DNA of 62,921 nucleotides, the filler included, from Asterionella formosa (taxonomy: Eukaryota): the NCBI GenBank assembly GCA_002256025.1. It is 5 parts of 5 records of this genome, joined end to end, with 100 filler letters (N's around TTAATTAATTAA, not from the genome) between each part and the next. Parts side by side here need not be neighbours in the genome. Positions count along the whole stretch, not along the records: positions 1 to 28,580 come from NKIB01001184.1; positions 28,681 to 30,466 come from NKIB01001186.1; positions 30,567 to 32,354 come from NKIB01001187.1; positions 32,455 to 34,242 come from NKIB01001188.1; positions 34,343 to 62,921 come from NKIB01001189.1. One strand, given 5' to 3'. Position numbers and translations under genes: made by a program. Positions 2,520 through 58,641 of this stretch are shown one piece after another. Numbering within the stretch: the stretch's first letter is position 1; each line of letters begins with the position of its first letter. Below the pieces are notes generated by a model, which saw nothing but the letters and a program-made list of their open reading frames with translations, searched no databases and was not told the origin of the DNA.

Positions 2520-3100
2520 ATCAGCACAACACATTAGCCGGAGGTTGCCTAAACCCTTTGTTGGTGACAACATAAAGAATAATTTGCCAAATCTGTTAAG
2601 AACCTTGTACTACATCCAACTACCTGACAGTTGGAAGATAAGCCCAGCACCCAAGAGGAGCATCATTGGGCATTGGATCAACAAGCTCCAGACTAGTCAG
2701 AAAATCCATTCCATTGGCAAGTTCTTCTTCTTTTTACTATCATCATCCATGAATAGGCAAAAATTGTGTAAGTGGGCACAAGCAGAAAGAATTGCAACTG
2801 ATTTCTTCATCCTGAAGGACAAGGATGTCCTCAGGATCCTCCATTTATTGGTGAGCAATCCAAACGTCATCTCAATTCTAATGCGTAGTTGTGAAAGGAA
2901 ATAATTGTATGCATCTTTGTTTGTTGATTCTCTTTGACTTCCAACAAATGGACAGAGCATTTGATCAGTCAATGTGTAAGCAGAATCACCTACTATGTAT
3001 TGTCCTGGATGAAGGTTGGATACAATCTGAAAAAGTTTTGTTCTTTCAAATACCTTCTGATCTGGACATTTTCCTGGTGCCACGACACCAAAGTATACCT
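2520..3100 (-). mobile_element. PIF/Harbinger (DDE_Tnp_4 / HARBI1-like) transposase, 5'-truncated pseudogene
   Basis: YFGVVAPG, YIVGDSAYTL..PF, YNYFLSQLRIRIEMTFGLLTNKWRIL and ACAHLHNFC are canonical C-terminal Harbinger motifs. Frameshift near 2700; N-terminal half absent. Confidence 0.9.
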
Positions 3101-3442
3101 ACCGGTATATTAAATTTATAAAATTAGTGTTGCTTAATGCTGTATCTGCAGCGATACACACAGATACACATTTCGGAGCAACAAGAAAGTGTTGCTGGAA
3201 GCACCATATCACCCGGATGTGTGAGATACAAAAAATCGGGCGGCCGAGCAACATTTTTTTGATTTTTGTATCTCTGTTAAAAAAGATTGGCCCTAATAGT
3301 ATAGGACCAGGTACCCTGGTACCCTGGTACCATGAAATTGATGAGACATTGTCACGGCCTTGCATTATCATTCCTAGAATACCGGTAACCACTCCAGCGT
3401 TCCCTCACATTCTATATAATGATCGGACACACACGGTTTACA

Positions 3443-4732
3443 ATGCTTCATGGCGAGATTCGAGAACGGGCTAGACGATCAAATTCGGCGCCTCCCATGC
3501 CCACGCGGGCTGCCGTTGTCAAAAGTGGCGTCCCCGTTGTTACGGATCTCATTGATGGTCTGAGCCGACCTAGGTTGTGCGACTTGTCATTCAAGAGCAA
3601 AGACGGAATAATTGTCAAGGCGCCGAGGTTCATGCTGGGTATTCAATCGCAGCAATTGGAAACGCTGCTCTATGACGTGCACAAGGATGAATCAGACCTT
3701 TCCTGCTTTGAAGGGTATTCAAGTTTAGTCCTGAACGCGATGTTGGAGTACTGTGTGTCTGGTGAACTGAATGATTCGCCGTTGGCTCAGCACGAGAGTT
3801 CAGCGACAGCTCGCGAGCTAGTTCACTTGGCATCGTTTTCTGAGAAGTATGGTCTCAATGAACTCTTCGACGAAGTCTTCAAGATTGCCCGGATTTTGAT
3901 GAACAAGAGGGAACCACTAGCTGCTGCTTTCTATGACGAAAGCGCTTCCCTAAAGTTGTTTGAACGATACGCCTTGCAAATTTTTGTTGATTCACCTCAT
4001 GCAGCTCTCATGGATTCACCTGATCCTGGAATTTGCCACTTGTCATCGGCGAGGCTGATTGCACTTATTCAGGACCAGTCCTTCGAAATTGAAGAAATGC
4101 TGGCATTTCAGATCGTTCTGCAATGGCTGGAACAATCGGAGGAAGAAAATGCCTTTGACATTGCAAGACAGTGCTGCCAGTTCCTTCATCTCGAAGATAT
4201 TGAGCCCTTGGATTTATTAACAACGGTTCGTGAATCCCATCTCGTGGACGGGCTTCAAATTCTCCATGCATGCGCCAATCAAGCAGTGGCAGCACAACGA
4301 TTGGGTATATACTTTTCCCAACCTCGTGGTCCTGGATACTTCGACCGTTTATTAGTGACTGGCGCAGGAAAGTCCGGAGCCAACGGCTTGTACCATGCGC
4401 GAAATGAGGACGATGATGGGATGAAAACTATTTATCTAAAAACTAGTGAGCGAAATGGTGGTGATTTCGGTGTGTTTATATGGGGGAAATTTTGGAATTT
4501 GGCGCCCGCAGTAGATTTGAGCAATGTGTGCTATTCAGTTCCAATTAACGAAGAAATTCCGGGATTGGTTCCAACTGAAGGTTGGAAGACCAAGGGTAAT
4601 GGAACCGACCCAGCACCTAGCTTGCGACTATTTCGGGCCAAACGAAGAATTCCAAGCATTCTTCCTTTACCGACATTGACACACAATCTTGAAGATGAGA
4701 AGAACATCAAGGACGATGTATCACGAATTTGA
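3443..4732 (+). CDS. BTB/POZ-BACK domain protein with an uncharacterised C-terminal GAG..NG.Y / P..GW domain
   Basis: BTB motifs (LCDLSFKSKDG..VKAPRFMLGIQS..LETLL, MLEYCVSGEL, SEKYGLNEL), BACK-like IEEMLAFQIVLQW, intact intronless ORF. Confidence 0.85.
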   Translation: MLHGEIRERARRSNSAPPMPTRAAVVKSGVPVVTDLIDGLSRPRLCDLSFKSKDGIIVKAPRFMLGIQSQQLETLLYDVHKDESDLSCFEGYSSLVLNAMLEYCVSGELNDSPLAQHESSATARELVHLASFSEKYGLNELFDEVFKIARILMNKREPLAAAFYDESASLKLFERYALQIFVDSPHAALMDSPDPGICHLSSARLIALIQDQSFEIEEMLAFQIVLQWLEQSEEENAFDIARQCCQFLHLEDIEPLDLLTTVRESHLVDGLQILHACANQAVAAQRLGIYFSQPRGPGYFDRLLVTGAGKSGANGLYHARNEDDDGMKTIYLKTSERNGGDFGVFIWGKFWNLAPAVDLSNVCYSVPINEEIPGLVPTEGWKTKGNGTDPAPSLRLFRAKRRIPSILPLPTLTHNLEDEKNIKDDVSRI

Positions 4733-5109
4733 GCATCGGTTGAGGCCTTTCGGGTGAGTTTGAGAAACTACGGTAAATCCGTTCATCCAAACAACACATA
4801 CTAAAACTTGTAATAAATTGTATAAAAGGACGAATACATCTGTTTCCTTGGGTATATTGCTTTCGTTTCTGATATCCCAGTAACGGAATTTGCTGCTCCA
4901 ACTTCTTGCTGGGTTTCGAAGACTATACAAGGTAGCAATAGTATCATATCCTCGAATGGTGGTGTAAAGGGAGCTAGGGTCAATTCATTCTATTATACGC
5001 TTACAAATCTCATGGAATCTGATCTTCACTATATGCAATAAAAAATCAAAAAAAACTGAAAAAATGTTTTCATTACTCAGACGCAAAACTAGTCAAAAAT
5101 ATTATAGTG

Positions 5110-6321: not shown

Positions 6322-7198
6322 TGTATAGTGACCAACTATACGTGTACAGCACTTTGTGATTGTATTTGGATTTACTCGAAACAAAAATAGAAATGAATGT
6401 TGTGAACACTTCCATCATTAGGCGTCGCTCAAGAAGAACGGCCCGAAATGGCCGAGTCGTGTTTTCCAATTTCTCAAATTCTGCCTCACCGGTATCACAT
6501 CATAATCCGGGGAAAAAACGAAGCAAATAAAAATATTTATTACCAGTATGATCTTTTTATATTATGTACATACCTGTCTATGGTTAATTAATACAGCGGT
6601 ATTATTTATATTCATGATGCAATGATAATAATGGTGATGTCTTTTTCCACTGATGGCGCTATACTCTACATAAAATAATAGAGGTAATATACCGGTACTT
6701 GGTTTACCAGAACTGAGACAAAGAGATGGGAAATGCTGAGACTATTAATAATACCGGTAGCCTATTAATACCTTCCAGATACCAAAGAAGAGTAGCTAAA
6801 CTTTTGGTTTTGATATAATATGGAGTAATATGACGTCTGCAACAGAAAGATGCAGTGCATTGCATTCTAATATAGAAGTAGTTGGACGCTTGATATAAAG
6901 AAGAGAAAGAAACGAAGGACATGGACTTGGGTTGCTTCTACCAGTGCACTTTGGGATAGACTACTTCTGGATATTGAAGTATCAATTGAGGCTTAGCTAT
7001 GTATTTCCCACAGTCCTTCACGATTGTATTTGCCCAGCCTCAGTCAGTATTGTAAGAGCCACACCCTATGTTGCTTCAACAAATTGTAACCGGAACGAAT
7101 TGTTTTCCACGCACTTAAACAAGTGTCCCATAGCTTTATTGATAAAATCAAAACTACTGCAACCATTTGCTGTATCACATAAAGAACTTTTTGTTTTC

Positions 7199-8323: not shown

Positions 8324-9396
8324 CTACCCCAAACGCTTCTTGATCTGAGCAATGGCCTTGGCAGGATTCAAATGCTTGGGGCAAACCTTGGTGCAGTTCA
8401 TAATTGTATGGCAGCGGTACAACTTGAATGCATCGTCCAATTCCTCCAGCCGCTTTTGTGACTGTCCATCTCTGGAATCCTGAATCCATCTATAGGCCTG
8501 CATCAATACAGCAGGCCCCAAGTACTTGTCCCCATTCCACCAGTAAGAAGGGCACGACGTCGAACAGCACGCACATAGGATACATTCATACATGCCATCC
8601 AACTTGGCCCGATCTTCACGCGTTTGCAACCATTCCGCTTGTCCTTCCTTCTTGTCGTGTGCAGGTTGCAACCATGGTTGGATGGACCGGTACTGTTCAT
8701 AAAAGTTTCCCATATCAGGGACCAAATCTTTAATGACATACATGTGAGGGAGAGGGTAAATCTTGGTGGCAGCCGCTGATTCCTTGTCAATGTATGCCAA
8801 ACAAGCCAACGTGTTGGATCCATTAATGTTCATGGCGCAAGAGCCACAAATGCCTTCACGGCACGAACGACGAAAGGTAAGAGTGGGGTCTTGCTCGTCC
8901 TTGATTTTGATGAGAGCATCCAGTACCATGGGACCGCAAGTGTTCATGTCGACGGGGTATGTGGACTAAAGCAGTTCAAATGTATGTATGTTTGGGTTTA
9001 CAATGAGTGATGTGAGTTTGGAGTGTTCAACAGCAAAAGCATGAATCACAAACGGAAGCAAAACTGTACTTGCCAGCCGGTACTTACCAAATAAGGCTTT
9101 TGGTTCTGTTCCGGATCCCAACGATAAATCTTGAAATACTTGATCTTTTCCACAGTAACAGAAGGAGCCTTCGCTGCTCCCTTGAGATTCGCTGTGTCGG
9201 TCGACAATGAACGGCTGATGCCTCGGTGAATCTTTTTCTTGTTGTCGCAAAATATTGGGAGTTGTTGTGAGTGCAAACTTTATTGTCATTGCAACCTGAT
9301 TGTGATTAGATCCATCCTTCATCAACTCTCTATCATGTAGGTAGGTACGTACGCACGTACCAGTAGTGAGACGGCAGAGCGGTTGGTGGACATCAT
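8324..9396 (-). CDS. SDH2: Succinate dehydrogenase iron-sulfur subunit; 3 exons (9396-9361, ~9238-9088, 8965-8324)
   Basis: [32 protein letters not shown] and [14 protein letters not shown]e-S motifs; GT-AG introns restore the frame. The acceptor of intron 1 is uncertain by ~6 nt. Confidence 0.96.
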
Positions 9397-10139
9397 GGTG
9401 GATGGTACAATAGAATTGAAAGCAGGAGACACTATTGGAATATTAATGTATTAGCGACCGCGAGCCAGGAACAGATCAAGTGAAGAAACTGAAACAGCCG
9501 GATCTTCTTTCCAGGGCAGTAAGAAAATGTATGATGGAGTTCTCAAAACCAATTTTGTTGTTTTATACTATATCTACCCGTATGATTTACATGATATGTG
9601 TAGAGTGGCCACTGTATTACCTTCATGGTAAGTAAAGTATATACCGGTACCGACATTCTTATAGCGACCGGCAGTTGCAGATGTGGGTGAGGATGGAATC
9701 ACGGTTGCCGCTGTGGTTCGCATTGGGTCCCACCCAACGACTGCCTCATCCTCATGCACCGTATATCGTATGCAGCGGTCTAGAGACGGAACCCTTCTGC
9801 AACAATGACTTGGTCGTAATTTAGTTGAGACTAGTTCAGTCAAAGTCTGTACTCTAATATTGGTCGTATATACCTACCCCGGTAGACTCATCCTGTTCCA
9901 CACCGGTGGGCGGTCGAAAAAGCCATCATCCTTCCTCGATGTTCATCACCATCATGCTGCCATGACGCGTACGTACGTATGATGTACGGTACCTGGGGAT
10001 GCTCCGTTCTACGAAGAGACGAAAACAAAACGAAACCACTCCTCAACCCCCGTAGATTGATCATAATCACTACCAGTTACCGTATCAGCCATCCGCATTT
10101 CATCATTATCACACAAATACTGCTTCCATCACAATCAGC

Positions 10140-12468: not shown

Positions 12469-13605
12469 GGTATGTTTATGTTTATTGGCTGAGATTCAAT
12501 TAAAGCGGAGATATTTCGAGTAGATTTCAAATGATCAATATTTAGCTTGAGTTGAGTTTTGCCTGGCTGAATTTTCGACTCATGATTGCAATTCGTTTTC
12601 AAGTGATGCTGTAAACTTTATATATATACAACATAGAATATGTACTTTATATATATGAATAAAATTAAAGAATAAGAAGAATTGCTATTGCGTTCACTTC
12701 ATACAATGATGGACTACCGGTAGACTGCTTGAGTAAATATTTTTGTTGATTAGGAGTACACATTAAATAATTCTAAAATTTATACAAATATTAGTACATA
12801 TATATATTTATACTGATTATGCCAGTATAAATGAAACACATGCACATATAACCTCTAGTTATTTTAATACGTCACCCAGTTATGATCGGTAAATAGTAGG
12901 AAATACTCCTGTGAAATACATTTACCACTGGTACATACATGATAGCTGTATTGGTACATCTACTACTGGCAGTTTTGAGCAATACCGCTCGCTCCCCACC
13001 AAAAACAAAAAAATATGTACGACTACCACGGAGAAATTATAGTCTACATACGGTAGATTCCGTAGGAAAATCTTGAAATTTGGCGGTGGCTGCTGGAAGC
13101 AGCCAAACACCAAGAAAATAAAAACAATTAACGAAGCAAGCAAATTACCACCGGTATGACAAGTACATAGTATAATCGCCAACGCAGTTCTAGCACATGG
13201 CTGATGTTCTTACCGGGATGTATGTGACGAAAGAATAATACTTCGACTCCAGGAGTACGCACAGTACCAGGTACAAGAAATCCCTGCTGAACGGATGACT
13301 CGCGTCGGCTAGGCCATTCCCTCAGCAGCTGCCATGACGACAGAAGTATTATCATAAACCTTCAGTGACAACGACAAAAGCAATCATCATGAACTTTCAA
13401 CAAAAAGCGACAACACCGGAGTGACTGAATCAGGTACCGTTGGACAGCTGGAATGACTAATGTTGAATGTAATATGTATCATTATTATATATTTAGACTC
13501 AGTAAATAGTCTTGATTGGTTTTATTGACCATGGACTAAAAATCCGGCAACTACAACAGTAGACCTACTTTGTTGTATACGCACATGCGACCAAACGGTC
13601 AACCC

Positions 13606-15078: not shown

Positions 15079-15864
15079 CGCCTGGACGATGAGCTGCTGC
15101 TTGTGCTTGTGCAACAGCAGCGTTAATGGCGTCGACACTGAAAAATCCAGCAAAATCAATGTGTGTGCTATCCCTGTCGATCGTATTGTTGTTTGGGCCA
15201 AAGGAGCAGAATTCACACATATGGAATAATAGCAGGAAGAGTAGCAAAGGCAAGCTACAATGATATAGATAACTAGAGGCGGATTGGTTGTAGCTCGGGT
15301 TGCTTCTGTCGAATGTTTTGTGTTCCGTTGACCAATGTTTGTACCAGGTACAAGGTACCAGTTTCTGAAGATACGACCGATCATGGTGGTGACTTCTATC
15401 GTTCAGACTGTATTTTACCTGTACCGTATTCCCCTTCCGTACGATCTACGTACCGTAGAATTCAAACTGCTGCCCCTTGCTTGTTGCTGCCGTGGTTCGT
15501 TGAACAGCAGCCATGGATTTGACTCCCTATATGACCCTTGAAAAAGTACAAGGTATCTGGTCCTCCATGTGGCTCTCACCCCCTCAGTCTTCCTTCACGT
15601 AAAGGTTTTCTACCTTCGTCAACACTCTCAATGAGGACACATAGACTACCAGTAGTCGAGTTAGTAGACCGATCTCGCCTAGTCCAAGTATTCCCAATTT
15701 CATTGGTATTGCCTTGTTTTGATGTTCAAGGAGCATGTACCCACTGCTGAAAAGTGAAACATAAAATAATAATCAAACAAGTCAAGCCGACAATTGAATG
15801 CCCACTACCAGTACATAGTTTTCTAATGTCCCCTCTAAAGATCCCTTACTGTGTCTTAATAATC

Positions 15865-16842: not shown

Positions 16843-18096
16843 CGTGCTTGTTCTATCCAAAATCAACTCTCACTTTCACGACGAACAGGAGGATTCAATA
16901 CCAAAATGATCAATGATGCGCGCATGCATGTGTAGGTGTAGTAAGCTTGCTTTTGCGTCTGCGAGAGAAGGTTACTATACAACGAGCAGGAGGAGCAATC
17001 TGTTTGGACGATGAACAAAAAGTGGATCAATAAGGAGCACAACATACACAGCAGTTTGTCATTCAGCATGTGCGTAATATCGTCGTCGTCTGGTTGGTTA
17101 TTTGAATGTAGGTTTACATACTAGGAGTACACTTACATACCATTTCGCGCTGTGTATTCATATGAAATCCTGGGAGTGATCATGGTAAAAAGTGCATCAT
17201 TCTGGTACGTTAATGGCAACTCTGCCCAGTGCTTTGCCCTTCACGGCGGCTACATGATTCCATCTCCTCAAAATAAGTACCAGGTACCATGTACTCGCAG
17301 GCCTGAGACCACCTCGGGAGTGTGTGGGAATTCAGATCCAAAAGTATACTTTGAAACAATTACCAACTTGTTAAACTGCCTTTCTTGCATGCACATTGTT
17401 CACCCCTTCTAGATTGTTTTGGATTGGATTACCAACTAAACTTTGGACTCATACCACACAGTAGTTGGTACTTTGATTTTGGATTGTTGTAGCTAGCATG
17501 GGGGTAATCCTTTCCTTGCTCCAGGTCCCCTTAGCTGCTGTAGGAGAGTTTGCACTTAGCCATGGGGGGCTGGGACTAACAAGGGTGGGTGAATTTTATA
17601 TATAAAGTTGTTTTTACAGCTTGGTGGAGTTCAATAATATTGCTTTGTCAAAAGCTGATTCAAAAAATTGTGAAGTTGCTGCCTTCAAACCTTTTTGCTT
17701 TGCATGCTGGTTGTTGTTCATTGTCTGATCAAATATTCCATGAACTTCTTTTGCTTGTGTGGATGTTTGCTGTTCAATATTAGCCTTCTACCTGTAATCT
17801 TCTCGTCATTTTTGGCTAGACAAAATTAGTTCCAGTGGTGCTAATTTGGCCTCAGCCTGAATCTTATTTCTTGTATCATTGCTTACTACTGTTGTTGCCA
17901 TTCCCATGGTTGGAATGCGCATGATATGCACATTCCTGCTTCCAGCATCCTATAGCTGATTGCAACGGCTCACATGAAGATCAATATGGTAGGATATGTA
18001 GTAGTAGGCCTAAGTTTAGATTTTCTTTTGCATTTAATAATTAAGAAAAAATTATGACACACACACACAAAATGGATGCAATATTTGTTATATGTT

Positions 18097-18097
<1 letters not shown>

Positions 18098-18360: not shown

Positions 18361-20214
18361 CAAGCTTCTCAATACTAATGGCTGGGGTTCACTTCATGTG
18401 TCGTCGTGTCAACTTTGGCGTCCATCCTCAAAATTCGCCTAGTAAGGAACAAGCAGTGAATTGTTGCATGTCCATATGTAACTTCGACATGATGACCCTA
18501 ATTAAGAAGATGATTTCATAACATGAAGTACATACATATGAAAGTCAGTACAAAGAAATACATAAAGATTTTTTGCATTTTGAGCTGTTGCATTCTTTCC
18601 GAGATTTGATTTTCTCAATATTTCTCATCTATTTGTACAGTAGACAGAATAATCAGCCATCTAACAAATGCTATCAAGCAAGCTATTACTACAGATTCAA
18701 TGATGTCTCTACTTTGGTAATATCTTCAAAATTGAGCAAGCGACGACCAAAACTAATTCTGCTAGCGTCGGAGATTTCAGTTTTTGTTGTCAGCATTAAT
18801 GCAAAAATAATTATAATGAACGATTACCTCGTCTATGTTGCTTAGCTAGGCTAGATAAACATACGAAATATGAATCGTTCATTGTCATTTTTCGTGGAGA
18901 TATTGAGTCTGAGGATCAGTTCATCTTGGTCAAGACAGAGATGATGAATCATCGACATCCTACTATGGCAGTGGCACAAAAAATATTAAATTTACATTTG
19001 GTTGTTTGTCTTATATATATATACTCGGATAAGTTGACACTACCTGGTGCCAGTATGCTATCATTGCTTGTTGCAACAATTTAAGCCTCTGGTCACAATG
19101 CATCACTGTGCAATCCTATTGGCTAGTTTAGAATATGGCTTGCACTGTTGTTGTTTGTTCCTGGATATCGTTCTTTTTGTTGCTAGCTAGTAGTAGAAGA
19201 TTGCAGGGGTGATGATCATTCAAATGATTCCTCTGGCTGGTTGTTATTGCTCAGTCCCAAGTCGTAGCTAGCTCTGATGAAACATCAGTCCCTCACTAGC
19301 TCTTACTGTTCCCTCCTCCTGAAGCATTATTAAATAAGTAGTAATTGCTAATTGCCTGCTCCTTCCTGCTTTTTCTTCACTTGTCCTTATCCTTTTTCTT
19401 GAATTCAATTCTTCTCTTAGACTTGTAGTATAGGAGGGAAAAAATATCACATGACCAATACCTTGTATCGGAAAATGTTGCGCCGCCCAATACAAGGTAT
19501 GCCTGGATTTGGAGGACAAACACAATTTGAAAACATAACAAACATTGCCATTACAGGGTACTTTCAGCATTACCTGTGTACTAGTACCAGTAGCTTTGTC
19601 CTCTTTATTTGATTTTTAGGGTTATCAAATTAATGTTGACCAATGGTTACTCAAACCATTAGTCTAGTCTTTAAAGTACCATAGTTTTTTATTGACCAGC
19701 CTAGTCGAAAATCTTGGGGAAACTAGCACAACAAGTTTTAGCTTTGATAACAAACCCGGAAAACTTAGGAAATTTTTGACTACCGGTATGTACGGCACAG
19801 TCCGAGCATTGTTGCATGTTGTGCAGATGAAATCATACCGGGAAAATATTTGTTTTATTTCGAAGCACGCCCAGTATACCCGGTCGTACTCGTCATCATT
19901 CATCTGCCTTTGATTTGCTTGCTTTGCTTTGTTCTTTTAGTTACCGGTATGCAGTTTTTACAAGATTCATAACAAAGCCCCCGGAATGTACTTATGTACT
20001 ACCTGGTACTTACTGTGCATGATGTTTACGTCCTTTTTTCTGAATTATTTTTCTTGTACCTAACATACCAGGTAAACATGAATACCCGGCGGTACCGGTA
20101 CCCTGGTAACAAAGTGTATCTGTTAACTCGTCAATCATTATCATTAAATTATCATCATCATTTTCATTTTCATCATATATCCTGTAGACTATTCACTATT
20201 TGGATCACCCCATC

Positions 20215-21683
20215 ATGTTGAAAGAAAACGTGGCTCAAACAAGCTTTGAAATTACTGTACGTACAATCATGAAATAGTTTATTTGTTGTATGGGATGCTG
20301 ACGATGGCAATCAGAGTCAATTCTGTCATCCATCCTTCTCCTATGGAAGCACCACCAGTACATTCTTATGCGTTACAATTACTACAACTACCGGTTCCAC
20401 CCTTTAACTGCGAACTCTCTCTCTCACACACACACACTCACACATACACGCAGGTCTCGGACCCTACCACATCCGGAGAAGGTCGCACCAAACACACAAC
20501 CTATCTTGTGGAAATTGCTAAAAAGACTTCCTCCCGTCGTCGTTATTCGGACTTTCAATGGCTCTATCAAGCACTCGTAGATGAGGTTCCAGGTGCATTT
20601 GTCCCACTCATTCCTCATAAAACGGCCATGCGTGGCAGTGTCCGTTTCAGTGATGAATTGGTAGAACAACGCTCTGTCACATTGCAAGCATTCATGACGA
20701 AAGTGGGACAACATCCCGAATTGAAAGAAACCGTGGCGTTGCAAAAATTCTTGACGGCATATGAGGAAGAGTTTACCAAAGTCAAGGCGGGGTTTATCGG
20801 GCCAGACGAGGCAGACGCCGCTGCTGCTGTGGGGGAAGAAAAGAAATCGACCTTGTCTAGTTGGGTCACCAGGGCAAGAGCCAGATTGGCGTCGGCAGTG
20901 GGGATGGAATTGGAAACGACACCGGACGATGCAATTATGGAACAAATGGAAACGTACATTCAGGTCCTTCATGCAAACATTAAGGCTATTCACAAGGAGA
21001 CTGCCATCATGGTCAAGGCGAGCAAGGATCGAGGAGGAGCTATGGTGCATGTGGGCGCTTGTTTTACCACCTTGGGGGCACAAAAGTACCCGCTTGCATA
21101 CACTGACTCATTGGCCAGCATGTTTGGAAAATTGGCTGACGATGTGGCGGAAATGGCGGGCTTTTGGACCAAGTTCCACGAGGTCGAAGAAACGGACTTG
21201 GAAGAGGCATTTCAACTATTGATTCTCGAAGTCATGTCCGCCAAGTTGGCGATGGAACAGCGCAAGACTATTCTTTGGGACTATACCCGTAAGGTTAATC
21301 ACCTTAGGAAACAAACAGTCCAAAAGGAAAAAGGAAAAGTCACAGACGATGAAGTGGAAATTTTGAGAAAAGAAGCGAAGCAAGTTTGGGAATTGGTGGA
21401 AGCTGTTTCCAAACGAGTGCAACGAGAAATGGACATTTGGAGAAATTCTTTTGAGGCCAAAGTGCGCGATGTCTTAGAAACGTACGTTTCAAAAACAGTG
21501 AAACATTATGGACTACTAAAAGACAGTTGGGAAAGCACTGTTACAGTTATTGCAGCTGAGAAGAAGGAAGATACATACTCGCCCCCTTCCCCCATGCCGT
21601 CGGCTCCGCCACCTCCGGAACCACCAATCCTTGTTGATGATACTAATTTTGAGAAAGATGAGGCGGTTGTGGTCTCAATCTAA
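20215..21683 (+). CDS. Sorting nexin (PX + BAR/Vps5-like); exon 1 20215-20256, exon 2 20454-21683
   Basis: Spliced FEIT|VSDP; PX motifs RRRYSDFQWL, PGAFVPLIPHK, VEQRSVTLQAFM..HPEL; coiled-coil BAR region. Confidence 0.93.
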
Positions 21684-24057
21684 ATTCGATTGAATTGGGA
21701 GCTTGCACTGGTGTAATTAATAGTTCACGAGTGCAAGAAAAACTTACCAATTGTCATTTAAGTGGCTTTGCTTTGGTTAGATGCCGAAAAAATGGAGAAT
21801 GTCGCTTTGAGACTAATTTGAAATAATTGCATTGTTCGATAATGAATAGATCCTAGTGGTAAACAGACATGCACTTTGCTAATATCACATGTAACTTTTT
21901 TTGCGAAAGCCTCCTATTAGGGATTATTTGACTTCTCATGAAAGTAGAAGCAATAGCAATGCATCTATGATGATATGATTCATCACCTCATCCAAACATT
22001 TTTGACATGGCAGATCAAACATTTGCATTATTGATGAAATTTTGTGCATTTTGCATGCATACTTATGCTTTGATAGACTTTTCACATGTATGATGCATGT
22101 GTATGAGTATATTGGCGTAGAACACGAAAACAAAGTGGTATCATGTGGAATATACTACCACAGTAGTCTATAGACTATAGTGAATTTTTTGAAAATCATC
22201 TAATTTCTGTTGCTTTTGGGAATGCTTCACATCATTTGCACGAGCACTATCAAAAATCAATTGATGATCATGACATCACATTGTGGTTAGATGATTCACC
22301 AAGAACAACTCCACCCTTCACTTGAGGGGCTTTCAAGAACCCATCAGGTAACTGTAGGGTCTATGGTAGATATTATGATCAGGTTCATGTTGATAAAAAA
22401 TGGTTTCTTGTTCAAGAGGTTAACCAGAGGTCTTATTGATTGAGGTAGAAAGGGAACCGATTTGGAGGAAGCACAAGGATCATATAGAGAAGGCAAGAAT
22501 GTTCTTTCAGCTGTTTCTTGTCTGAGGTATGACGAAAATTACTGGACCATGTTAATAGCACTGCTGCTGTAGTTCTGGATTGAATTGGCCAGATTCAATG
22601 GCATGACATGGTAAGCCAACATGTTCTGACGAGCTCTTCTTGAAAATTTTCATATCCTTGCCATGGAAGAAGCAATGGTTGTCATGGCAACGACCAGCAG
22701 CCTTGTCAGCTGCGATGCAAAATGAGCTAATATCTCAGTTCTATTTTGGAAGTTCAATCTGAAGGAGGGAAATGGTATGGAGATGCTCGTGGTGGGAGAG
22801 GAGAAAGGAGATAGACCGATGTGAAGCCCAATCAACTTGCAACAACAGTGACAACAATGATTGCAACATTGAGTATCAATGATTTTCATTATAATTGATT
22901 ACTACAATTTTCTGACAAATGAGACTACCAAGTTTTAGGGAGGAAATAAATATCGATTCACAAGATTGGGTCGTCATTTGATTGATGTTTGGATTGACAT
23001 ACTATTTAAGGTTCCTGCAATTCAACCCTAAGGCAAAATTAAAATATTGCTTAGAATTGCCGAAATTCCCTGGAACTAAGAAATTTTAGGGGCTTTTTTG
23101 AAAAACATGATTCAATTTGAAACATTCAAATTAGTGGAAATTAGCGCATATGTGCATAGGTTCTTTTTCGAATTGGCTTAACATAAAGATGGAGATTGTG
23201 CATCTATATATGTATGTACACTCTAGACACTGATCAACAATTATGTGTCATATGACCCAGCGGCTTGGCAAATATTTGAAAGTGCACTCTAGGAGTGGTA
23301 TGCAGATGTCCAATGATAATCATCAACTGATACCCATAGTGGATATGGTACCAGTGTTTTGGCAATCACCCAAGAAAATGTTACATGTGCCTCTAGTGTG
23401 GCCATTGTGGGTTTTTTGCAAGATTTTGACCAATCAAAAGATTGTTATTGAAGTGGACACTTACAATAGAGTTTTTGTACACGAGATTGCAGGACAAAAA
23501 TTTGAATCACAAGACTCCTATTCCAAAGATGACATTTCGGCGAGTAGTGATTCTGATTCCAACATTTTGGGACTATTAAGAAGGCCAATGATTTCTAATT
23601 TTTGAATAACAATAGCTCAACGTTGGCAGGGTTTGTTTAAAGAAGAGTTAAGTACATAGGTAATCTTCATATAGCCCCAGAAGATAACTTTCAGAGGGAA
23701 AGTGCAGAATGGATCTTTGGTTTTTTGACTAGGCAAAATAAACAAGTTGGCCCAGTAAAATTCACTATTTTCAGCATGGTTAAAATACTGAAGTTCCTTT
23801 CTGCACTTTCTTGACAGATCCTATATCCTGACAATCAATAGCATTGACCTCTACCCCTACTTTGTCAGAAGACTGCATCTAAGCATATGGAAAATGTGTA
23901 TGTTGGTGAAAGTTCCATTTAGTGATATACATTTATATTTTACTCGTAATGAATGTTTGTTTGACTACTCTGACTCAATTGTTTGATAACAAAACCTCAA
24001 ATCTAGGGTTGAAATGCAGTAACCTTGATCTTCAGTACCAGGTACCATAAAAGGTGA

Positions 24058-24145
24058 TGTTGAAATATATGGCAACTTATCTAGTGCACTCCAGTCCCTG
24101 GAATGACTGGTCAAGATTTTTCTCGTGTCACTCATTTGCATATTA
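24058..24145 (+). repeat. Isolated ~90 bp copy of the terminal sequence of the element at 34343-35769 and 45160-46048
   Basis: tgttgaaatatatggcaac..ctccagtccctggaatgactggtcaagatttttctcg matches the reverse complement of ~45960-46048. Confidence 0.75.
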
Positions 24146-25241
24146 TTCTGCTGTAGAAACACTGTCTATTTCCGTTTGGACATTCCTCAGACTACATCTC
24201 GCCTTCGGACTCCTGTCGACATCAACAGCCTAACAGACACACTCTGACAAGGTAATCATGGCCATAAATTTCCCGAATGATACGAAGATTGAGCGAAGAT
24301 TTTGCCGAAAGCTTTACGACATTTGACCTTCGCATTTCGGGCACGGTGATGACTCTCAGTTTTTAGGTGGCACCTGGAATCAAGATTCCGGTAATTTGTA
24401 CCATTCCAAACAAGGTCAGGATACCTGCACTACCAGGACTGGTACCAGGTACCAGGTACCAGGTAGGTACCTACCAGGTACTAAATGGTAGCTTCATTTA
24501 CCGCTCCTCCAGTACCTGGTACCAGGTACTTCTACCTGATACAGCTACCGGGACCGTATATATACCGGTAGTATTTCTGATGAGCACACTCTCGGGCCTC
24601 TAAGTCGTGTTCAACTTGCCGTTATTTTGCGGCTGAGATTGCGTACATCCACATTCATACAGGAGTCAGGGTGTCCAAGGTGCTCAGCTTTAGTGAGTCG
24701 TGAGACAGCACTGAACACGTAGCTAACAACTTGCACGAATTCGAATCCCTCCGGAGGATTCAACATTTATTTGCCTGCCGGCATGCTGAATCATACAGAT
24801 TCCATTTGATTCACATGAGAGCCCGATTCGCATTTGTTTCTCGCTAAAATACGGTACCGGCATCGGCTTACGTAGCTAGACAAGTAATGTGTACCGAGGC
24901 TGTACTGTACCAGGTAGTAAGGAGGAGCCAACTGCTGTGGTCCCGAATATTTTCTTCGTATGTACCAGGTACTTGGCGTATGTGCGTACCGGTAAATACC
25001 AGACAGCACAGGGAGAAAAAAGTACGGGACAAATTACAACTGACGAACCCTCGGAGTCGCGAGCGAATCTGCCAATCGAAATGGAGGAAGAATGGAAGGG
25101 AGGCGATGTCACATTATCGACACAAAACAATCAAGCCCATCACTTGAATAGGCACGACCACAATCAAAGCATTTCAAGTTTGTAAATGCTTTTATATCAT
25201 TATACTGTCCAAGAAAGACCGGCGAATCAATCAGCATCACC

Positions 25242-34342: not shown

Positions 34343-35769
34343 GAGTTGATGTGCATGCGATGTAGCGTGGCACTCCAATCCATTATTTCATGCGTCGTCG
34401 CATAAGAGATGGGAAGGGAGATTTGGTTTGGTACCATCTTCGCGGTGTATAGGAAGCTCAAAAAATACTCTGCAGATGCGTACACTTGTTTGCGGATCGC
34501 TGCCTTCTCGTCGTCGGTTTGGGTGGTGCTAAGATTCGCCTGGTTTTCCGCGAATGTTTTGGCTGCAAGGCGAGCGAGGAAAAAGAGTTCAGCTGGGTCA
34601 TCGGTGGAACTGGAGGTGAGGACGTTGAACAGGAAAGGCGGGACTTGGACAAGATGGTTGATGTTGGTGTTCATCACGGTAGTCGCCGTGAGGTGCAAGG
34701 TGCTGAGTTGTTCCGGAGTGGTGGCATGATCATGTAAGGCGTCGTAGTTGGGAATGGTGGTTGTGATGGCTGCGAGAGCGTGTCTGGCTTCGAAAACCAC
34801 TGGTTGGGCGATGGATCCCAATCCAAGGAGAGCTACGTAGGCCGGCTCCGATTTACCCCAATTGTTGCCTGTGAGGACGCTCAGATTGTGGCAAAAATGG
34901 ACTTTATGGTCGAGAGGGCCAATCATGGCATGGAATTTATAGAGGGTGTTAGTGAGGAGGGTTTGACGGGTTTCTGGCGTGGTTGCGTGCTCAAGCGAGG
35001 TTGCAAAGTGGTGGAACTCGGTCAATAGATCGTTTCGAGCGGCGAGAGTATCCGTAAAATAGTTCTTCCAGGCGTTTGCGAGAATCATGTTGTTGCTAGA
35101 GATGTTGTTTATTGATTTTAGACTATAAATTGCGAAAGGCTTGGCGATGCTTTAGACTGCTTCTCTGAATCGTTATTCAAAGAATTGTGTGCTTCACCCT
35201 TGCACTAATTCACTTGTTTAACCTTGTATGGTTGCTCTTGTCTTCCCTTGTCTTAGCTGCCGACTCTTGGTTGTTCGATTCAACTCTAAAAGCTAGAACT
35301 TAATAGTCGCGTTGTCGCTATATTGAATTCTCAGCTTTGACTCCTTCGATTCGCCTCGCGTGGTTTGTATCATCCGGTGCTCGCCTGATATACTAACTCC
35401 ATCGCGTCGGTCCTTGTCCGTAATATCAACTTTCGAGTGGGCACGCCATCACTTTTGCTCTATGTATAAATATGATCATTTTGGCAGACTAAACAAAATA
35501 TTTTTCATGCGGCAGACAAAGTAAACTTTACTCGAATCGAGCAATGACCCAACGTAAATTGCTTTACGACTCGATTCGAGTACCGGTAAAGTTTACTTTA
35601 TCTGCCAAATCAAAACATTTTGCTATACCTGCCAAAATGATCATATTTAGAGCTTGAAATCTTATTCAAAATCACGCCGCAAATCATAAACACCCCATCA
35701 CCACATGAGGTACGTAGGCCCCCAGGGCAGTACTGGAGCGCGCTAGAGTAGGTGCCATGTATTTCAACA
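34343..35769 (-). mobile_element. 5' part of an unclassified repeated element with an ORF1/gag-like ORF (35088 to the contig end); probable retroelement
   Basis: ORF and ~330 bp leader are clearly homologous to 45160-46048; both copies start with TGTT(G/A)AAAT on the minus strand. Confidence 0.65.
35467..35649. mobile_element. 183 bp foldback/MITE-like hairpin inside the element leader
   Basis: Perfect 21 bp terminal IR (taaatatgatcattttggcag / ctgccaaaatgatcatattta) plus a ~31 bp inner IR; absent from the 46 kb copy. Confidence 0.8.
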
Positions 35770-42300: not shown

Positions 42301-42532
42301 TCATACACATGTCAATATGTAGGAGCTATTGTTATAGTTGGACTCTTCTCCTTCCTAATGCTATACTTATGCACAACGAAAGGACACACGAAATTCGGGG
42401 AAAAGTCGATTCACAAAGTTTCAAAAACTAGTGTATATGTATATACAGAAATGACTACCGGTACATGCTTCTGGCTTTTCGAGCGATGTGTATGTCTCTC
42501 TGGCCCTCACAATTCATTCTCCGGATCCAGTT

Positions 42533-46048: not shown

Positions 46049-46703
46049 GTCTCATTTACCCGGTACCCATCCTCCATGCATTTTTACAGGTCCAGGTCCC
46101 CGTGTTGAAATACCACATTCAGTAAGAAGTTAAACCTGATACCAGGTCGTAACTGGAACTGATAGCCCTTACCTACTCCATATCTCCTTTTTACAATTCC
46201 GTTATGATGATCATTGGTTTTGTGTACGTAGACATATCAATACACAGTTATATCTTTATCTACCGGTACTTGGTAACCGGTACTCTACCGGTATAATAAG
46301 AAATCAGCTGAGTATTGCTGTTACCTAGGGACAATTTCTAGTTGCTATGTTTGTAATCACATACACACTATCTTCCTACACAGCAAGAATTAAATGCCAA
46401 GGATACTGTTGTGCTGTTTGTTATTGCGTTTTTTCATTGTTGCTATGTAGCGAATGTTAAAATGAATGATCGCTCGTGGAAATATTGTTATGCTATCTTC
46501 ATGAATGAAGTTATTTGCAAGGACTGCCGCATGATCGCGCTGGTCAGGATAATATTCTTCCGTTACTGTACGTAAGTTCCGAGTGCATCTCTAGTACTCG
46601 CCAAAACCCCGCAACGAAATCTTCGTTATTCTCATTTCTTGCAGCTGGCTGCTGGTTCATTGACTCAATAAACTTGAACTTCTAGTCTATTGCTCTGTTC
46701 ACC

Positions 46704-54398: not shown

Positions 54399-55766
54399 TA
54401 TCTACAGCCTATTTGGTCCCTGACGTGTCCTTACAGGATACAAGTAAGCAATAGAGGGCTTCGGGATGCAATTTCAACACATAGTAATTGTAATATCAGA
54501 TTTATCTATGAGCGAAGCATATGAGAAAAAGGCATGCCTGTCGAATGAAATAGTATCGGTAGGTAGAGTAAAAAAAGCTCGCCTTTGAATTCGTCATAAA
54601 GATTCATAGGTAGTGAGCGACTTTTTCGTAGTTTTGGAATAGTGTGGTTCTGAACATGGACTTCAGCAATGTTAGGTGAAGGCGGCTCGCAGGAAACACT
54701 TAGTAAGGGAAACCGACGAATATCAGTGAGAATAAACATAGTTTCTATAACCATTAAGACAGTAAACACAGGTGAATAAGTCTAGTTTCAATTATATGAT
54801 TGCTAAAAGCATTTTACCTCATCCAGAATAACCCCAGCCATGCAATTGCTCGCCAATAAAATGGCGAAATGTGAAGACCCACAAACATTCAGATATACAT
54901 GAATGATGTGCACATATGTCGCATAACAGGCGATAGTCAAATCGCCTTGAGATGACCTATTAGCAGGAGAGCCACAGATCGACATCATTTGTCCATCAAA
55001 CTACTAAAAGTGTAAAATTGGTGGCAAGTTACAAATCGAATTCAAATCAGAACCCAGAAACCCATCAGATGTATTCATACCAGTTTGGTACACAAACACG
55101 CATGTAGAACATAGGATATCTCACACCTAGTTGAACTTTTCCTTTGAATTGGTCGACGTCATGCATTTCCTTTGGTCCATTGTGACATGGCTTCTCACAA
55201 ATGTAGACGCAATCATCAGGAGGTAACTGGATGTAGATTGTCATTATGCGAAATTTCTGGATTATTTAGTAGTAGTGTTGGGAGTTGGCGTTGGCTGATT
55301 ACAGAAATTGTGAGATTATGGGCTTCTCTGATAATACTTTGTGATTGATGATAGTTACAAGAATCGTAGGATTCCGCCATGTATCCCAGTCACGTTTAAC
55401 AGCTACTTGGATTGAATTCAGCATCCAACTTCTTTTACTGGCAGTCGAGTCTATGGAGCACTACGGCAACGACTGGTATCTGATTGACTGATGATAATAA
55501 CGAAGATTTCTGGAATTATTTCAAGGTCATGAAAAATATACTGGTACACATATAAGTCCTCGCTTATAAATTAAAAAAGCCGGTACGCTTACTGCTATGT
55601 ATACTGTCTGATGCATAGTGCATTTGCGCAAACATCGATTGGTTCGAGTTATTTAGTCGCGCATAAAGCCCAAATATTCAGAATTTCTTCGCGATCAGAT
55701 AAAGCTATGTACGATACCTTTTTCGATACCAGAATCAAAATGTTAGTAAGTCAATACTCCGGAGTA

Positions 55767-56700
55767 CAGTGAAACCTCCCTATAAGATACACTCCCTGTA
55801 GGATACACCCTCTACACAAGATACATTTTTCTCAATGAAGCGCCCCCAATTTGGAAATCCTTGTAAGGGACCCTCTCTACAAGATATACCCTCCGTTAGA
55901 TACACTTGGATGAAATTTTTCTAAAAAATTGGTTATTCTGACCTCTGTAAAAGATAAAAACGAGCACCACACAGTCTGTACTCAGTTTGAGCGAGTAGTT
56001 TTTAGCCTGTTTTGCATGCTTTGATCATTTCAAATCACTGCTGTGGACTGACAATCTGCGTACACATGTAACAGAAGCATCAGTAGTAAATGTACCACAT
56101 CATCTTGCATAGCAATTATCTGGTGGTACCAGTACTATCTATCACTTGTGACATTACTTGTCAATGGCACTTTCTATAATAATTTTTTGTTTTATACTTT
56201 ACTGAAACGAACCTTGATTGTTTCTTGTACATTTGCTTCCATTTTTTCACTCATTTCAATCTTCAAGATTCAGACATCATCGCCATTGGGAACTGAAGGA
56301 TCTATTGTGAAGAGCATGTCTGAAATGAAGTTTTATCATTGATACAAAAATAAGAGCAATAAAGCTACTTGGTGAATTTTGTTGCAACCGTTGGATTCTG
56401 GAATCACTAGAAGTGTGAAAGCTCTCTCCCGTAAGCTCCAAGTTATACAGTTATTACAATTTATTGAAATGGTAGAACATGCAATAGATCTGACTAAGGA
56501 ATTGCAGATTATTGATGCGATGAGGTTTATCGCTACATCCTGAGGAAATGTTATAACTGAAACAATTCAAAATGCTTTAAAGCATGTGGGTTTGATAAAG
56601 TATGTGATGAAAAATGTGTATCCTCAGTAATGGAGGAAACTGAAATTGAAGTGTAGAAGCTGTTGGAGCGGCTTGGGGAAGTTGATATTCAATATGTACA
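55767..56700 (+). mobile_element. pogo/Tigger-like remnant (one TIR plus a transposase C-terminal trace)
   Basis: TA|CAGTGAAACCTCCCTATAAG terminus with repeated agatacac/ccctc subterminal words; DAMRFIATS*GNVITETIQNALKHVG at ~56514-56595. Confidence 0.65.
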
Positions 56701-58288
56701 AGATTGCATTGGCAAATATGCACATCTGTAAAAAAATTACATGCATATAGGATCAAGGCTATTGTACGCTACACTAACTATGATCAAGTTATCCTGTAAC
56801 TATGATGATTTATTAATATTTTACTGAACTTGAAATATAATGATAACAAGAACAATATCATCATACAATGTATATCAACTGATCAATCGATCAACAAGAT
56901 TTCTCATCAATATCATAAACCTTCTCATTTTATTTTAACTTCTCGTGATCGCCAGATCTAAATTATTACTACAACGTATCCTAAAATCAGCTCGACTCTA
57001 TGCTATCATGTGAATTGTTTCATCGTATATCTATCTTAAACATTATCATAAAGCTAATCACAAAGATTGATCAAAAAGGATTGAAATGGATCAAAATTAT
57101 ATTAACAACTTTAGCAATGATGTTTCTGTTTCGACAGCTACCCAAGTAATGTTTCTCTCCTCTCCACTTGTCTCAATGAATATTCCTGTCTCGCCCTTTT
57201 CTTCCTCTAGTTCCCTGCTCTTAGTGTCATTCTGAACTCGCCGACTATTCTGTTCTTTGATTGGTTTTATTGTCCTATGCAGTTACAGTAACAATGAGAA
57301 GGAATGACTTGTTAGCTAGTCATGCTACACTGACACAACAACATCACGCCATTCCATCGTATCCTCTTGCTTGCTTCACTTACCAAAAATCAAAGCAACT
57401 GATGCATATGTCTGTAATAGTAAATTTTCAGTAAATTTTTGAATAAGTAAGTTTCAGGTACCCAATGTTGTCGAATAAAGCAAACTTACCGATTAATTTT
57501 CGTTAGCTTAACTTTGAGAGAAGGTAAATGTGGCGTGTCCGTCAGTTATGTTCCAAAAGATGTCAATAGATCCAACGACAAGAGCACTTACCAATTTTGT
57601 TTTGTTCTACATTGGTGCTCCCCAAAAAGCGAAATGAGCTATTGAATCAACTGAGAAGAAAGGAAATGGGCGTTTAGTTTACAATTTGTTGTTGTCCTGC
57701 CTCCCAACTATTGTTATGCATATACCACATTGATGGCTTCAATACCTTAAACATACTCCATCCTTCGAAGGGGCAATGTGTCGAAGCCACAATGTTTTTC
57801 GTTATTGCGGAAACTTTCCTTGTCATATGCTTTACTACGATATTTCTTTTCACGACGCAGGCATTGTTTGTTAACATGACAGAACGATTTCAAAATCCTT
57901 TGCCATGTATATAGCTATGAAATTTGTAAAAATATAAATATGATATCAAGTATCGTACTGTTATAGAGTTCAAAGGTACTCTCAACATGACACGTCTGGT
58001 ATTGTTAAGATGATGTCCATTGTTTTCCACGACTTCGTGTACTGGTACTGTTTCTGATATTTGTTTGTATCAATATTTTCTACATCCTTTGGAACTAATT
58101 ATTTACCGGCAGACCATTCAATTGGTGTAAGTCACAACCCATTTGTATCATTATTTATACGCCAGGATTTTGGTAGCTAATTATTTAGGCCCCTTTTTTG
58201 GCGGGAATTCTTCATGTGTACATCAAATGAACATAACATTTTATCATATATATTCAGAGTACCAGTAGCAGGTAGGAAGTGATATACT

Positions 58289-58641
58289 GGGGGTAGTCAG
58301 AGTACCAGGTAATAAGCGAGCAACAGAACACCATATGTTCAGGACTGTTGCTCCTACAGCGGGACAGTAAATTATCATAGTTTCAGGATCGTGTGATTGT
58401 AGAATTGAAAGGGGGTAGTCGGAGTAGTAAGCAAGCAACAGAACACCATATGTTCAGGACTGTTCCTACTGCAGTGGGATAGTAAAGCATCATAGTTTTC
58501 AGGATCGTATGATCGTAAAATTGAAAGAGGGTAGTCGGAGTAGTAAGCGAGCAACAGAGCACCATATGTTCATGACTGCTGCTACTGCAGCGGGACAGTA
58601 AATTATCATAGTTTCAGGATTGTATGATCATATAATTGAAA
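58289..58641 (+). repeat. Three tandem copies of a ~116-120 bp unit
   Basis: gggtagtc.gagta..taagc.agcaacaga.caccatatgttca.gactg...atcatagtttcaggat...aattgaaa x3. Confidence 0.92.

What the first reader, a model, noticed from the sequence alone, without database searches (positions are those of the whole stretch)
3095..58311. Pervasive TA-CC(W)GG-TA words in non-coding DNA: a candidate genome-wide excision-footprint record
Seen: TACCGGTA occurs at least 17 times (3100, 3380, 6690, 6752, 9642, 12715, 19781, 19942, 20093, 24563, 24987, 28265, 35581, 42456, 43475, 46261, 46286), against roughly 1 expected from base composition. None falls in a confident exon. TACCAGGTA/TACCTGGTA are similarly frequent, with related TACCAGTA, TACCGTA and TACTGTA. 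Known: Tc1/mariner elements duplicate TA and leave TA-(terminal bases)-TA footprints on excision. Inference: elements with CC..GG ends have inserted and excised repeatedly and reshaped gene-flanking DNA. Alternatively, an unknown templated-insertion process or a cis-regulatory motif is responsible.
Basis: partly seen in the sequence, partly recalled or inferred. Interest (0 to 1): 0.75.

Follow-up and report, generated by a model that had tools for sequence, protein, structure and literature searches.

The report
Transposon excision scars with matched sources
Two short DNA words that crowd the regions in front of genes in this freshwater alga look like scars left when two different families of cut-and-paste jumping genes leave a site, and one family seems to land preferentially next to its own scars, building repeat tracts that other mobile elements then use as landing sites.

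Summary
Confirmed. TACCGGTA (8-mer) occurs 18 times in the window and 28,528 times genome-wide (control 1,718); TACCWGGTA (9-mer) 20 and 26,886 times (control 902). Both are about 7-fold denser outside ORFs and enriched upstream of genes.

Among repeat copies both appear as whole insertions that duplicate a TA. Matching TA-inserting elements exist: CCG-ended pogo families (473 ends) and a CCA(C/G)-ended family (869 ends) whose 723-aa DD37D transposase has a mariner-like fold but no Pfam match.

Flanks pair them up. GG precedes 68-69% of CCA-family ends and 54% of 9-mer sides, but 6% of pogo ends and 11% of 8-mer sides. So the 8-mer is best read as the pogo scar and the 9-mer as the CCA-family scar, which recreates its own preferred target and grows 7-bp arrays. 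An LTR element, a DD39D mariner and a small MITE insert into those arrays.

Not shown: a locus seen both filled and scarred. The insertion rate inside repeats is about 5-fold too low for the intergenic density. The scan already noted the footprint reading and the LTR targeting on other pieces of this genome.

The parts
3100..3387 (.). Two 8-mers (3100, 3380), 319 and 39 nt upstream of a 437-aa ORF
6541..6759 (.). 8-mers at 6690 and 6752 and a CA variant at 6541, upstream of a P450-like ORF
9358..10084 (.). Cluster between the divergent SdhB-like (Fer2_3/Fer4 domains) and Tim10-family genes; 8-mer at 9642
12715..13273 (.). 8-mer at 12715 and 9-mer at 13265, upstream of an MFS transporter ORF
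15342..15813 (.). 9-mer at 15342 and variants at the 5' end of an abhydrolase gene; the only word inside an ATG-to-stop frame
17278..17286 (.). 9-mer 436 nt upstream of a 325-aa ORF
19585..20259 (.). Three 8-mers, two 9-mers and variants upstream of a PX/Vps5 sorting-nexin gene
24036..24994 (.). Densest cluster: nine 9-mers, including a 7-bp-period array at 24443-24480, and two 8-mers, upstream of a 230-aa ORF
28265..28321 (.). 8-mer, two 9-mers and the half-site into which the LTR element inserted
28322..28518 (+). 197-bp 5' LTR (TG...CA) of a high-copy element that integrates into the 9-mer with a 5-bp duplication; its internal part runs to the contig end at 28580
33430..33438 (.). Isolated 9-mer on a small contig
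35467..35649 (.). Inverted repeat whose right arm carries the 8-mer (35581) where the left arm has a single TA: a 6-bp insertion visible inside the window
42456..42463 (.). 8-mer 77 nt downstream of the ribosomal protein L17 ORF
43374..43482 (.). Two 9-mers, one 8-mer and an 11-base TA-bounded word matching the DD39D mariner termini, between divergent L17 and aminotransferase genes
46261..46570 (.). Two 8-mers and variants upstream of an ARM-repeat gene
55757..56722 (+). Remnant of a CAG-ended (Tigger-like) pogo element starting at the TA at 55765, sharing that TA with a 12-base word that matches the DD39D termini
58260..58311 (.). 9-mer at 58303 and a CA variant at 58260 in a degenerate tandem repeat unit
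62088..62095 (.).

Best explanation
The words are accumulated excision footprints of two kinds of TA-inserting cut-and-paste transposons. An element inserts at TA and duplicates it (shown). On excision the transposase cuts a few bases inside each end, and end joining keeps both TAs plus terminal bases (inferred from known Tc1/mariner chemistry). For CCG-ended pogo elements, 3-nt overhangs can pair through their CG, or 2+2 bases are joined, giving the 8-mer. These elements have little flank preference, and neither has the 8-mer. For the CCA(C/G)-ended DD37D family, the overhangs overlap with a central A:A mismatch, resolved to A or T at random, giving the 9-mer; the geometry is either 3 nt with a 1-nt overlap or 4 nt of the CCAG ends with a 3-nt overlap (not resolved). 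This family prefers TA flanked by WGG and CCW, and its scar supplies exactly those flanks, so revisits stack into 7-bp arrays (inferred). An LTR element, a DD39D mariner and a 90-bp MITE use the arrays as targets (shown as site association). Enrichment upstream of genes most likely reflects insertion into open chromatin plus purifying selection in exons (inferred).
For: Whole-unit insertion: 9 of 54 distinct 6-bp indels between repeat copies are exactly TA to 8-mer; 1 of 14 7-bp indels is TA to 9-mer, with a second such event. Polarity: at 4 of 6 testable 8-mer sites the long allele is private (short in 8/10, 18/19, 44/53, 29/31 other copies) and one 9-mer site is short in 47/52. Window example at 35581. 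Sources: full-length CCG-ended pogo elements, with nine copies at 99-100% identity and 473 ends against a control of 67. CCAC ends 420 against 0; CCAG ends 449 against 23. Empty paralogous sites with a single TA for 2 pogo-B elements and 1 CCA element. Flank match, GG before TA: 286/420 and 310/449 CCA-family ends and 309/570 9-mer sides, against 2/36 pogo ends, 68/612 8-mer sides and 6.7% of all TA. The 7-position flank profile of 31 CCAC ends resembles that of the 9-mer. A 10-base word keeping CCAG on one side occurs 45 times against 3 for the CCTG form, as CCAG termini predict. Adjacent array units carry the same W in 28 pairs and different W in 30. The intact transposase P0001 has three invariant aspartates and matches the Mos1 catalytic domain best (Z 12.3, rmsd 3.3, 195 aligned).
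Against: No locus was seen both filled and scarred: none among 21 elements tested (one of them with mis-set ends). Rate gap: 4 private 8-mer insertions per 4,476 private substitutions in repeats, about 5-fold below what a neutral steady state at the non-ORF density of 0.53 per kb needs and 10-fold or more below the upstream density (my estimate). About 120 8-mers per resident pogo element and about 60 9-mers per CCA element require long or intense serial hopping. Only two 9-mer insertion events were caught. Words keeping four bases of the CCAC ends are rare (1 against 45). The DD39D mariner shares the same flank preference (13/17), so flank match alone does not single out the CCA family; its termini do. 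A commoner insertion signature (2-bp duplication around C, G or GC) has no identified element, so constant-core insertions might arise here without a known transposon. At 2 of the 6 testable 8-mer sites the long allele is the majority or mixed.
Confidence: 0.76

Rival explanations
1. A host break-and-repair process, not transposon excision, inserts constant cores with a 2-bp duplication (for example a 2-nt staggered break filled in with added bases); resemblance to element ends is coincidence.
For: 202 of 280 3-bp indels read as NN-(C/G)-NN and 70 of 131 4-bp indels as NN-GC-NN at many dinucleotides; they make up 74 of 146 private insertions and no source element was found. Scars far outnumber elements.
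Against: The CCGG and CCWGG cores are tied to TA. Each matches the termini and the flank context of a resident TA-duplicating family. Templating of W from the flank was tested and failed: 49 palindromic against 48 same at one-sided sites.
Confidence: 0.12
2. The words are transcription-factor binding sites that arose by point mutation and are kept by selection.
For: Upstream versus downstream density within 1.2 kb of long ORFs: 8-mer 1.17 against 0.47 per kb, 9-mer 0.86 against 0.12 per kb, with flat TA density. The rate gap above. In oomycetes a motif containing the 8-mer was reported upstream of genes (PMC10031896, PMC3520976), and a MYB-related protein binds the analogous TACATGTA (PMC11134190).
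Against: The words enter as whole 6- and 7-bp units, also inside LTRs, transposons and an inverted repeat. Upstream enrichment is broad over about 1.2 kb with no sharp position. About 55,000 copies in 68 Mb. Later use of scars as binding sites is compatible with the best explanation and is not excluded.
Confidence: 0.06
3. The 9-mer arrays are ordinary slippage-grown minisatellites, or by-products of the LTR element's 5-bp target duplication.
For: Arrays have a 7-bp period and continue with probability 0.69-0.88 per base past the closing TA. The LTR element sits on the 9-mer at 20/27 5' and 31/43 3' junctions.
Against: Slippage or target duplication would copy W, but neighbours differ in 30 of 58 pairs. 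Doubled 5-bp cores are absent: 0 against 120 9-mers. Both caught 7-bp insertions arose at sites with no prior unit.
Confidence: 0.04

Closest known systems
Excision footprints of IS630-Tc1-mariner elements: Sleeping Beauty canonical 'cag' or 'ctg' (PMC5224488, passages), Tc1 (cited in PMC3520976, passages), NHEJ footprint model (PMC2874221, passages), Passer 0-4 bp (PMC9976928, passages)
   Same: TA duplication kept, core equal to terminal bases, and a central base resolved either way in the 9-mer.
   Different: Seen as tens of thousands of fixed genomic words rather than single events; two cores traced to two families; the scar recreates the preferred target.
Stowaway/Osmar5 footprints and repeated insertion at one site in Triticeae (PMC1925063, abstract and passages)
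   Same: 1-4 terminal bases kept inside TA duplications; new insertions next to old footprints.
   Different: There one intron; here genome-wide, with pogo and a new DD37D family as main sources. The resident DD39D mariner leaves few recognisable scars.
pogo superfamily, Passer family, DD35D (PMC7386202 and PMC9976928, passages)
   Same: CCG-ended families: DDE_1 hit, weak BrkDBD hit, DD35D spacing, short TIRs, TA duplication, 2.2-2.7 kb.
   Different: They carry a second convergent small ORF. Placement in Passer is taken from an earlier scan note and was not tested by a tree.
Named IS630-Tc1-mariner groups: maT DD37D, Fot/Fot-like DD35D, PlantMar DD39D, HvSm (PMC7325037 and PMC7386202, passages)
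   Same: The CCA family has TIRs, TA duplication, a DDD triad and a mariner-like catalytic fold; a D-G-H-G-S motif recalls Fot-like transposases (recalled, from no call).
   Different: 700-1000 aa, DD37D, no DDE Pfam match in 50 members, 3.4-3.8 kb, conserved CCA(G/C) ends. It fits none of the groups as described in the passages read.
Oomycete promoter motifs: motif-1 and motif-9 of Seidl et al. (PMC3520976, passages), streme-5 (PMC10031896, passages), PsMyb37 site (PMC11134190, abstract and passages)
   Same: TA-bounded palindromes abundant upstream of genes in stramenopiles; motif-9 contains the 8-mer as quoted in PMC10031896.
   Different: They were read as binding sites, and a footprint origin for motif-1 was raised and dismissed without an indel test in the passages read. 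Here insertion is shown for the same word in another stramenopile; nothing was tested in oomycetes.
NuwaI (PHIS superfamily), CWG target duplication (PMC4482050, abstract)
   Same: The 90-bp MITE that sits on the 9-mer can be read with a 3-bp CWG duplication in 5 full copies.
   Different: No transposase was found for it; several other copies do not fit; membership untested.

Membership tests
IS630-Tc1-mariner excision footprint | TA duplicated around a short core, gained as one unit | tested here: met
   9 of 54 6-bp indels and 2 7-bp events; private long allele at 4 of 6 and 1 of 2 testable sites
IS630-Tc1-mariner excision footprint | Core equals the terminal bases of a resident element | tested here: met
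   CCG, CCAC and CCAG termini in 473, 420 and 449 ends
IS630-Tc1-mariner excision footprint | Source elements duplicate TA on insertion | tested here: met
   Empty paralogues with one TA for L045, L031 (pogo) and L169 (CCA family)
IS630-Tc1-mariner excision footprint | Same locus seen filled and then scarred | tested here: inconclusive
   No such pair among 21 elements in about 0.9 Mb of own-genome DNA plus 80 metagenome loci; the read-laying indel table showed 12 of 290 rows, all in repeats
IS630-Tc1-mariner excision footprint | Transposase-dependent excision yields the word | not testable with these tools
   Needs an excision assay
pogo (Passer-like) for CCG-ended elements | DDE_1 catalytic domain with DD35D spacing, short TIRs, TA duplication | tested here: met
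   DDE_1 E 1e-21; 35 residues counted by eye in the L021 protein; TIRs
pogo (Passer-like) for CCG-ended elements | Falls in the Passer clade | not tested
   No tree with reference transposases
IS630-Tc1-mariner group for the CCA family | TIRs, TA duplication, DDD/E triad, mariner-like fold | tested here: met
   invariant D241, D390, D428 in 50 sequences; best structural matches Mos1, SETMAR and Sleeping Beauty, Z 11-12 against 8.8 for integrases; Foldseek E only 3e-3
pogo or Tc1/mariner named families for the CCA family | Match to DDE_1 or DDE_3 profiles | tested here: not met
   0 of 50 members at E 0.01
pogo or Tc1/mariner named families for the CCA family | Profile similarity or clade membership | tested here: inconclusive
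   hhalign against one pogo sequence gave probability 0.4, a weak test; no tree
Transcription-factor binding site | Positional preference relative to gene starts | tested here: inconclusive
   Broad upstream enrichment, no sharp peak; measured from ATG, not TSS
Transcription-factor binding site | Positional conservation across species | tested here: inconclusive
   Orthologue scan found nothing; no allelic contig; truncated
Transcription-factor binding site | Bound by a factor and affects expression | not testable with these tools
   Needs binding and reporter assays

The most novel reading that the evidence does not exclude
Transposon traffic is a leading source of small insertions in this alga and writes its promoter vocabulary. 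An undescribed DD37D family runs a self-seeding loop in which each scar is its next target. The resulting arrays became a shared landing pad on which an LTR retrotransposon, a mariner and a MITE converged. The same process would explain the TA-bounded palindromes reported as transcription-factor sites in oomycetes, with factors such as PsMyb37 having adopted scars as binding sites.
Probability: 0.3. Interest if true: 0.85.

Novelty: new variant of a known kind. Interest (0 to 1): 0.62.

Why it matters
Footprints are usually treated as rare by-products. Here they would amount to about 55,000 fixed words concentrated in front of genes, a record of past transposition far larger than the surviving elements. 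It gives a direct way to test whether abundant palindromic promoter motifs in stramenopiles are scars, binding sites or both: compare indels with resident element termini. It also points to an unclassified, apparently intact transposase family with a strong target preference, and to a case in which one element's scars steer where others land.

Tried and rejected
DDE_3 and Transposase_1 (control silent) found nothing in the genome, although a DD39D mariner is present, so these misses say little.

Laying contigs of four public runs was swamped by repeats; it gave no usable indel test but exposed the LTR. A metagenome scan for sorting-nexin orthologues found none. No allelic contig exists for window 8300-17200.

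CpG decay as the source of the 9-mer was rejected: the S-centred parent has 10 copies and the other decay product 4, against 140. A 4-bp target duplication was rejected by the L123 event. An hAT-like 8-bp duplication did not fit the L115 event. Flank-templated W was rejected. Extra CCAGG as part of the DD39D terminus was rejected because W is mixed before its ends. The LTR as maker of the arrays was rejected.

A genome-wide flank count for pogo ends was not obtained, so that figure rests on 36 local ends. Diverged DD39D copies were not examined for other termini.

Literature: nine searches listed no paper on genome-wide footprints of these words in diatoms or on this DD37D family. Only listings were seen for most hits, the library lacks most subscription journals and Repbase, and no supplements were read, so a described family could have been missed.


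Full report
Terms. '8-mer' is TACCGGTA and '9-mer' is TACCWGGTA (W = A or T; the two forms are reverse complements). G000 is the window's genome, 68.4 Mb in 15,436 contigs; only window 1-28580 lies on one contig. Holders of the DNA are algal and freshwater runs, and named relatives of one of its transposases come from a pennate diatom. 'Diatom' otherwise rests on earlier scan notes and my recall; host genes were not placed taxonomically.

Observation. All 17 listed positions are right and there is an 18th; the 9-mer occurs 20 times. Genome-wide counts are 28,528 against 1,718 and 26,886 against 902 for reversed controls. In 462,821 bases (40 stretches chosen from long contigs, plus the window) densities outside versus inside ORFs of 150 aa or more are 52.6 versus 7.7 and 41.3 versus 5.6 per 100 kb. 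Within 1.2 kb of long ORFs, upstream exceeds downstream: 112 in 95,780 bases against 32 in 68,450 for the 8-mer, 82 against 8 for the 9-mer, while TA is flat. The enrichment is broad, not a sharp peak. In the window 37 of 38 words lie outside ATG-to-stop frames.

The words arrive as insertions. The two arms of the inverted repeat at 35467-35649 differ by one 6-bp gap that turns TA into the 8-mer. All-against-all alignment of the loci then in hand gave 54 distinct 6-bp indels, 9 of them exactly this change, and one more with the CA variant at the same site as an 8-mer in a sister copy, which shows decay of the CG. Of 14 7-bp indels one is TA to 9-mer; a second appeared with more loci. Where three or more other copies cover the site, the long allele is private at 4 of 6 8-mer sites and 1 of 2 9-mer sites; the others are majority or mixed. 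Indels with poorly matching flanks were filtered out, so counts are lower bounds.

Source of the 8-mer. DDE_1 gave 93 matches. TA-flanked elements of 2.2-2.7 kb with CCG...CGG termini fall into at least three families, one with nine copies at 99-100% identity. A pattern for two of them finds 473 ends against 67. The L021 transposase hits DDE_1 at 1e-21 and has DD35D spacing by my count. Empty paralogous sites hold a single TA. GG precedes 2 of 36 local ends, like the 8-mer (68 of 612 sides, Fisher p 0.41) and unlike the 9-mer (p 2e-9).

Source of the 9-mer. The 9-mer has a strong context: 309 of 570 sides are preceded by GG against 6.7% of all TA, and it continues into 7-bp arrays with unrelated W in neighbours. 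A search for TA-flanked inverted repeats found a CCAC-ended element with 420 exact ends in the genome, 286 preceded by GG. L168 is a 2.9-kb copy with a frameshifted transposase, 95% identical to a 3.78-kb metagenome copy (L189) that encodes the intact 723-aa P0001. In 50 aligned relatives D241, D390 and D428 are invariant, giving DD37D. None hits a DDE Pfam family. The AlphaFold model (pLDDT 84.8) matches Mos1, SETMAR and Sleeping Beauty best (Foldseek E 3e-3 to 4e-2; VIA Z 11-12). Relatives in other samples keep TA and CCA(G/C) ends, with G before the TA in 33 of 46 ends (some of these loci may be the same species). That predicted a CCAG-ended subfamily in G000, which exists: 449 ends against 23, 310 preceded by GG. 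A 10-base word that keeps CCAG occurs 45 times against 3 for CCTG. No CCA-family copy lies in the window itself.

Mechanism. Shown: TA duplication on insertion, matching termini, matching flanks, whole-unit gain. Inferred from Tc1/mariner chemistry (PMC2874221, PMC5224488, PMC1925063; passages): staggered cuts inside the ends and end joining. CCG overhangs pair through CG; CCA(G) overhangs overlap around an A:A mismatch. Because the scar ends in WGG-TA and starts with TA-CCW, it offers the family's preferred target on both sides, which explains the arrays. Whether the wider flank profile is read by the transposase or reflects hot spots is not resolved.

Other elements on the arrays. The LTR at 28322-28518 (955 first-look candidates, 40 scored) abuts half of a 9-mer at 20 of 27 5' and 31 of 43 3' junctions, the totals including chance matches. 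A pattern for solo LTRs gave 16 hits. In the 15 solo rows read, W agrees on both sides in all and the 5-bp duplication is exact in 13; the pattern fixed the other letters on the right side, and two rows are one duplicated site. 'Gypsy' is the label of earlier scan notes; I did not test it. A DD39D mariner with Stowaway-like ends inserts at the TA between units (13 of 17 ends after GG; 129 ends after WGG genome-wide). A 90-bp MITE sits on the central CWG.

Against. No filled-and-scarred pair was found. The private 8-mer insertion rate in repeats, 4 per 4,476 substitutions, is about a fifth of what the non-ORF density needs at steady state, so insertion must be promoter-biased, have been faster earlier, or be followed by selection. 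Flanks of pogo ends are only mildly richer in 8-mers (0.76 per kb against 0.53). A larger class of insertions, a 2-bp duplication around C, G or GC, makes up 74 of 146 private insertions and has no known source.

Comparison and novelty. Footprints of this type are textbook. What differs is scale, the pairing of two words with two families by flank context, the self-seeding arrays and an unclassified transposase family. In Phytophthora the analogous TACATGTA and a motif containing the 8-mer were read as binding sites and a footprint origin was dismissed (PMC3520976, PMC10031896; passages), and a MYB-related protein binds the former (PMC11134190; abstract and passages). PMC11267843 had no hit for these words in its main text. 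Scars and binding sites are not exclusive. The scan had already proposed the footprint reading, the LTR targeting and the GC scars on other pieces of this genome.

Verdict. New variant of a known kind; interest 0.62.

Noticed in passing
Repeat copies across L001-L146 and window (e.g. window 40288, 45490, 57696): Most 3-bp indels (202 of 280) and over half of 4-bp indels (70 of 131) read as a duplicated dinucleotide around C, G or GC; mostly insertions; source unknown.
   Followed up: partly
window 28322-28518; L052-L080, L116, L121-L136: High-copy LTR element with sequence-specific integration into the 9-mer and a 5-bp duplication; no tRNA-type primer site evident right after the 5' LTR.
   Followed up: partly
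L148, L152-L155, L159: DD39D plant-type mariner with Stowaway-like ends in an alga, inserting at the TA between array units; probable scars at window 43374 and 55757.
   Followed up: partly
L120:3727-3826, L110:587-681, L048:4966-5060 and about 30 further ends: A 90-bp MITE centred on the 9-mer, readable with a 3-bp CWG duplication as in NuwaI; no transposase identified.
   Followed up: partly
L021:781-1215: Second, convergent Cys/His ORF inside pogo and DD39D elements; 152 matches in the genome; no Pfam hit (earlier notes call it HIRAN-like).
   Followed up: partly
L087:764-5314: 4.5-kb TA-flanked element with CCGC ends and a relative in the window at about 19588-19790; no transposase seen.
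   Followed up: no
window 34291-35460, 45134-46070, 24036-24240: Three related pieces of a very high-copy repeat with an ORF lacking Pfam hits; contig depth up to about 150,000 near 24200 in one run.
   Followed up: no
window 2-688 and 3389-4732: Two similar-looking ORFs, by eye BTB/BACK-like, without Pfam hits; probable tandem paralogues.
   Followed up: no
window 36544-37198: Long nested inverted and direct repeats (161- and 159-nt arms), a foldback-like element.
   Followed up: no
L175:123: Two CCA-family ends share one TA: an element inserted against another's end, whose terminal TGG resembles the preferred target.
   Followed up: no
window 28581-28680, 30467-30566, 32355-32454, 34243-34342: Artificial N spacers with a stop linker join unrelated contigs; neighbourhood across them has no meaning.
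   Followed up: yes
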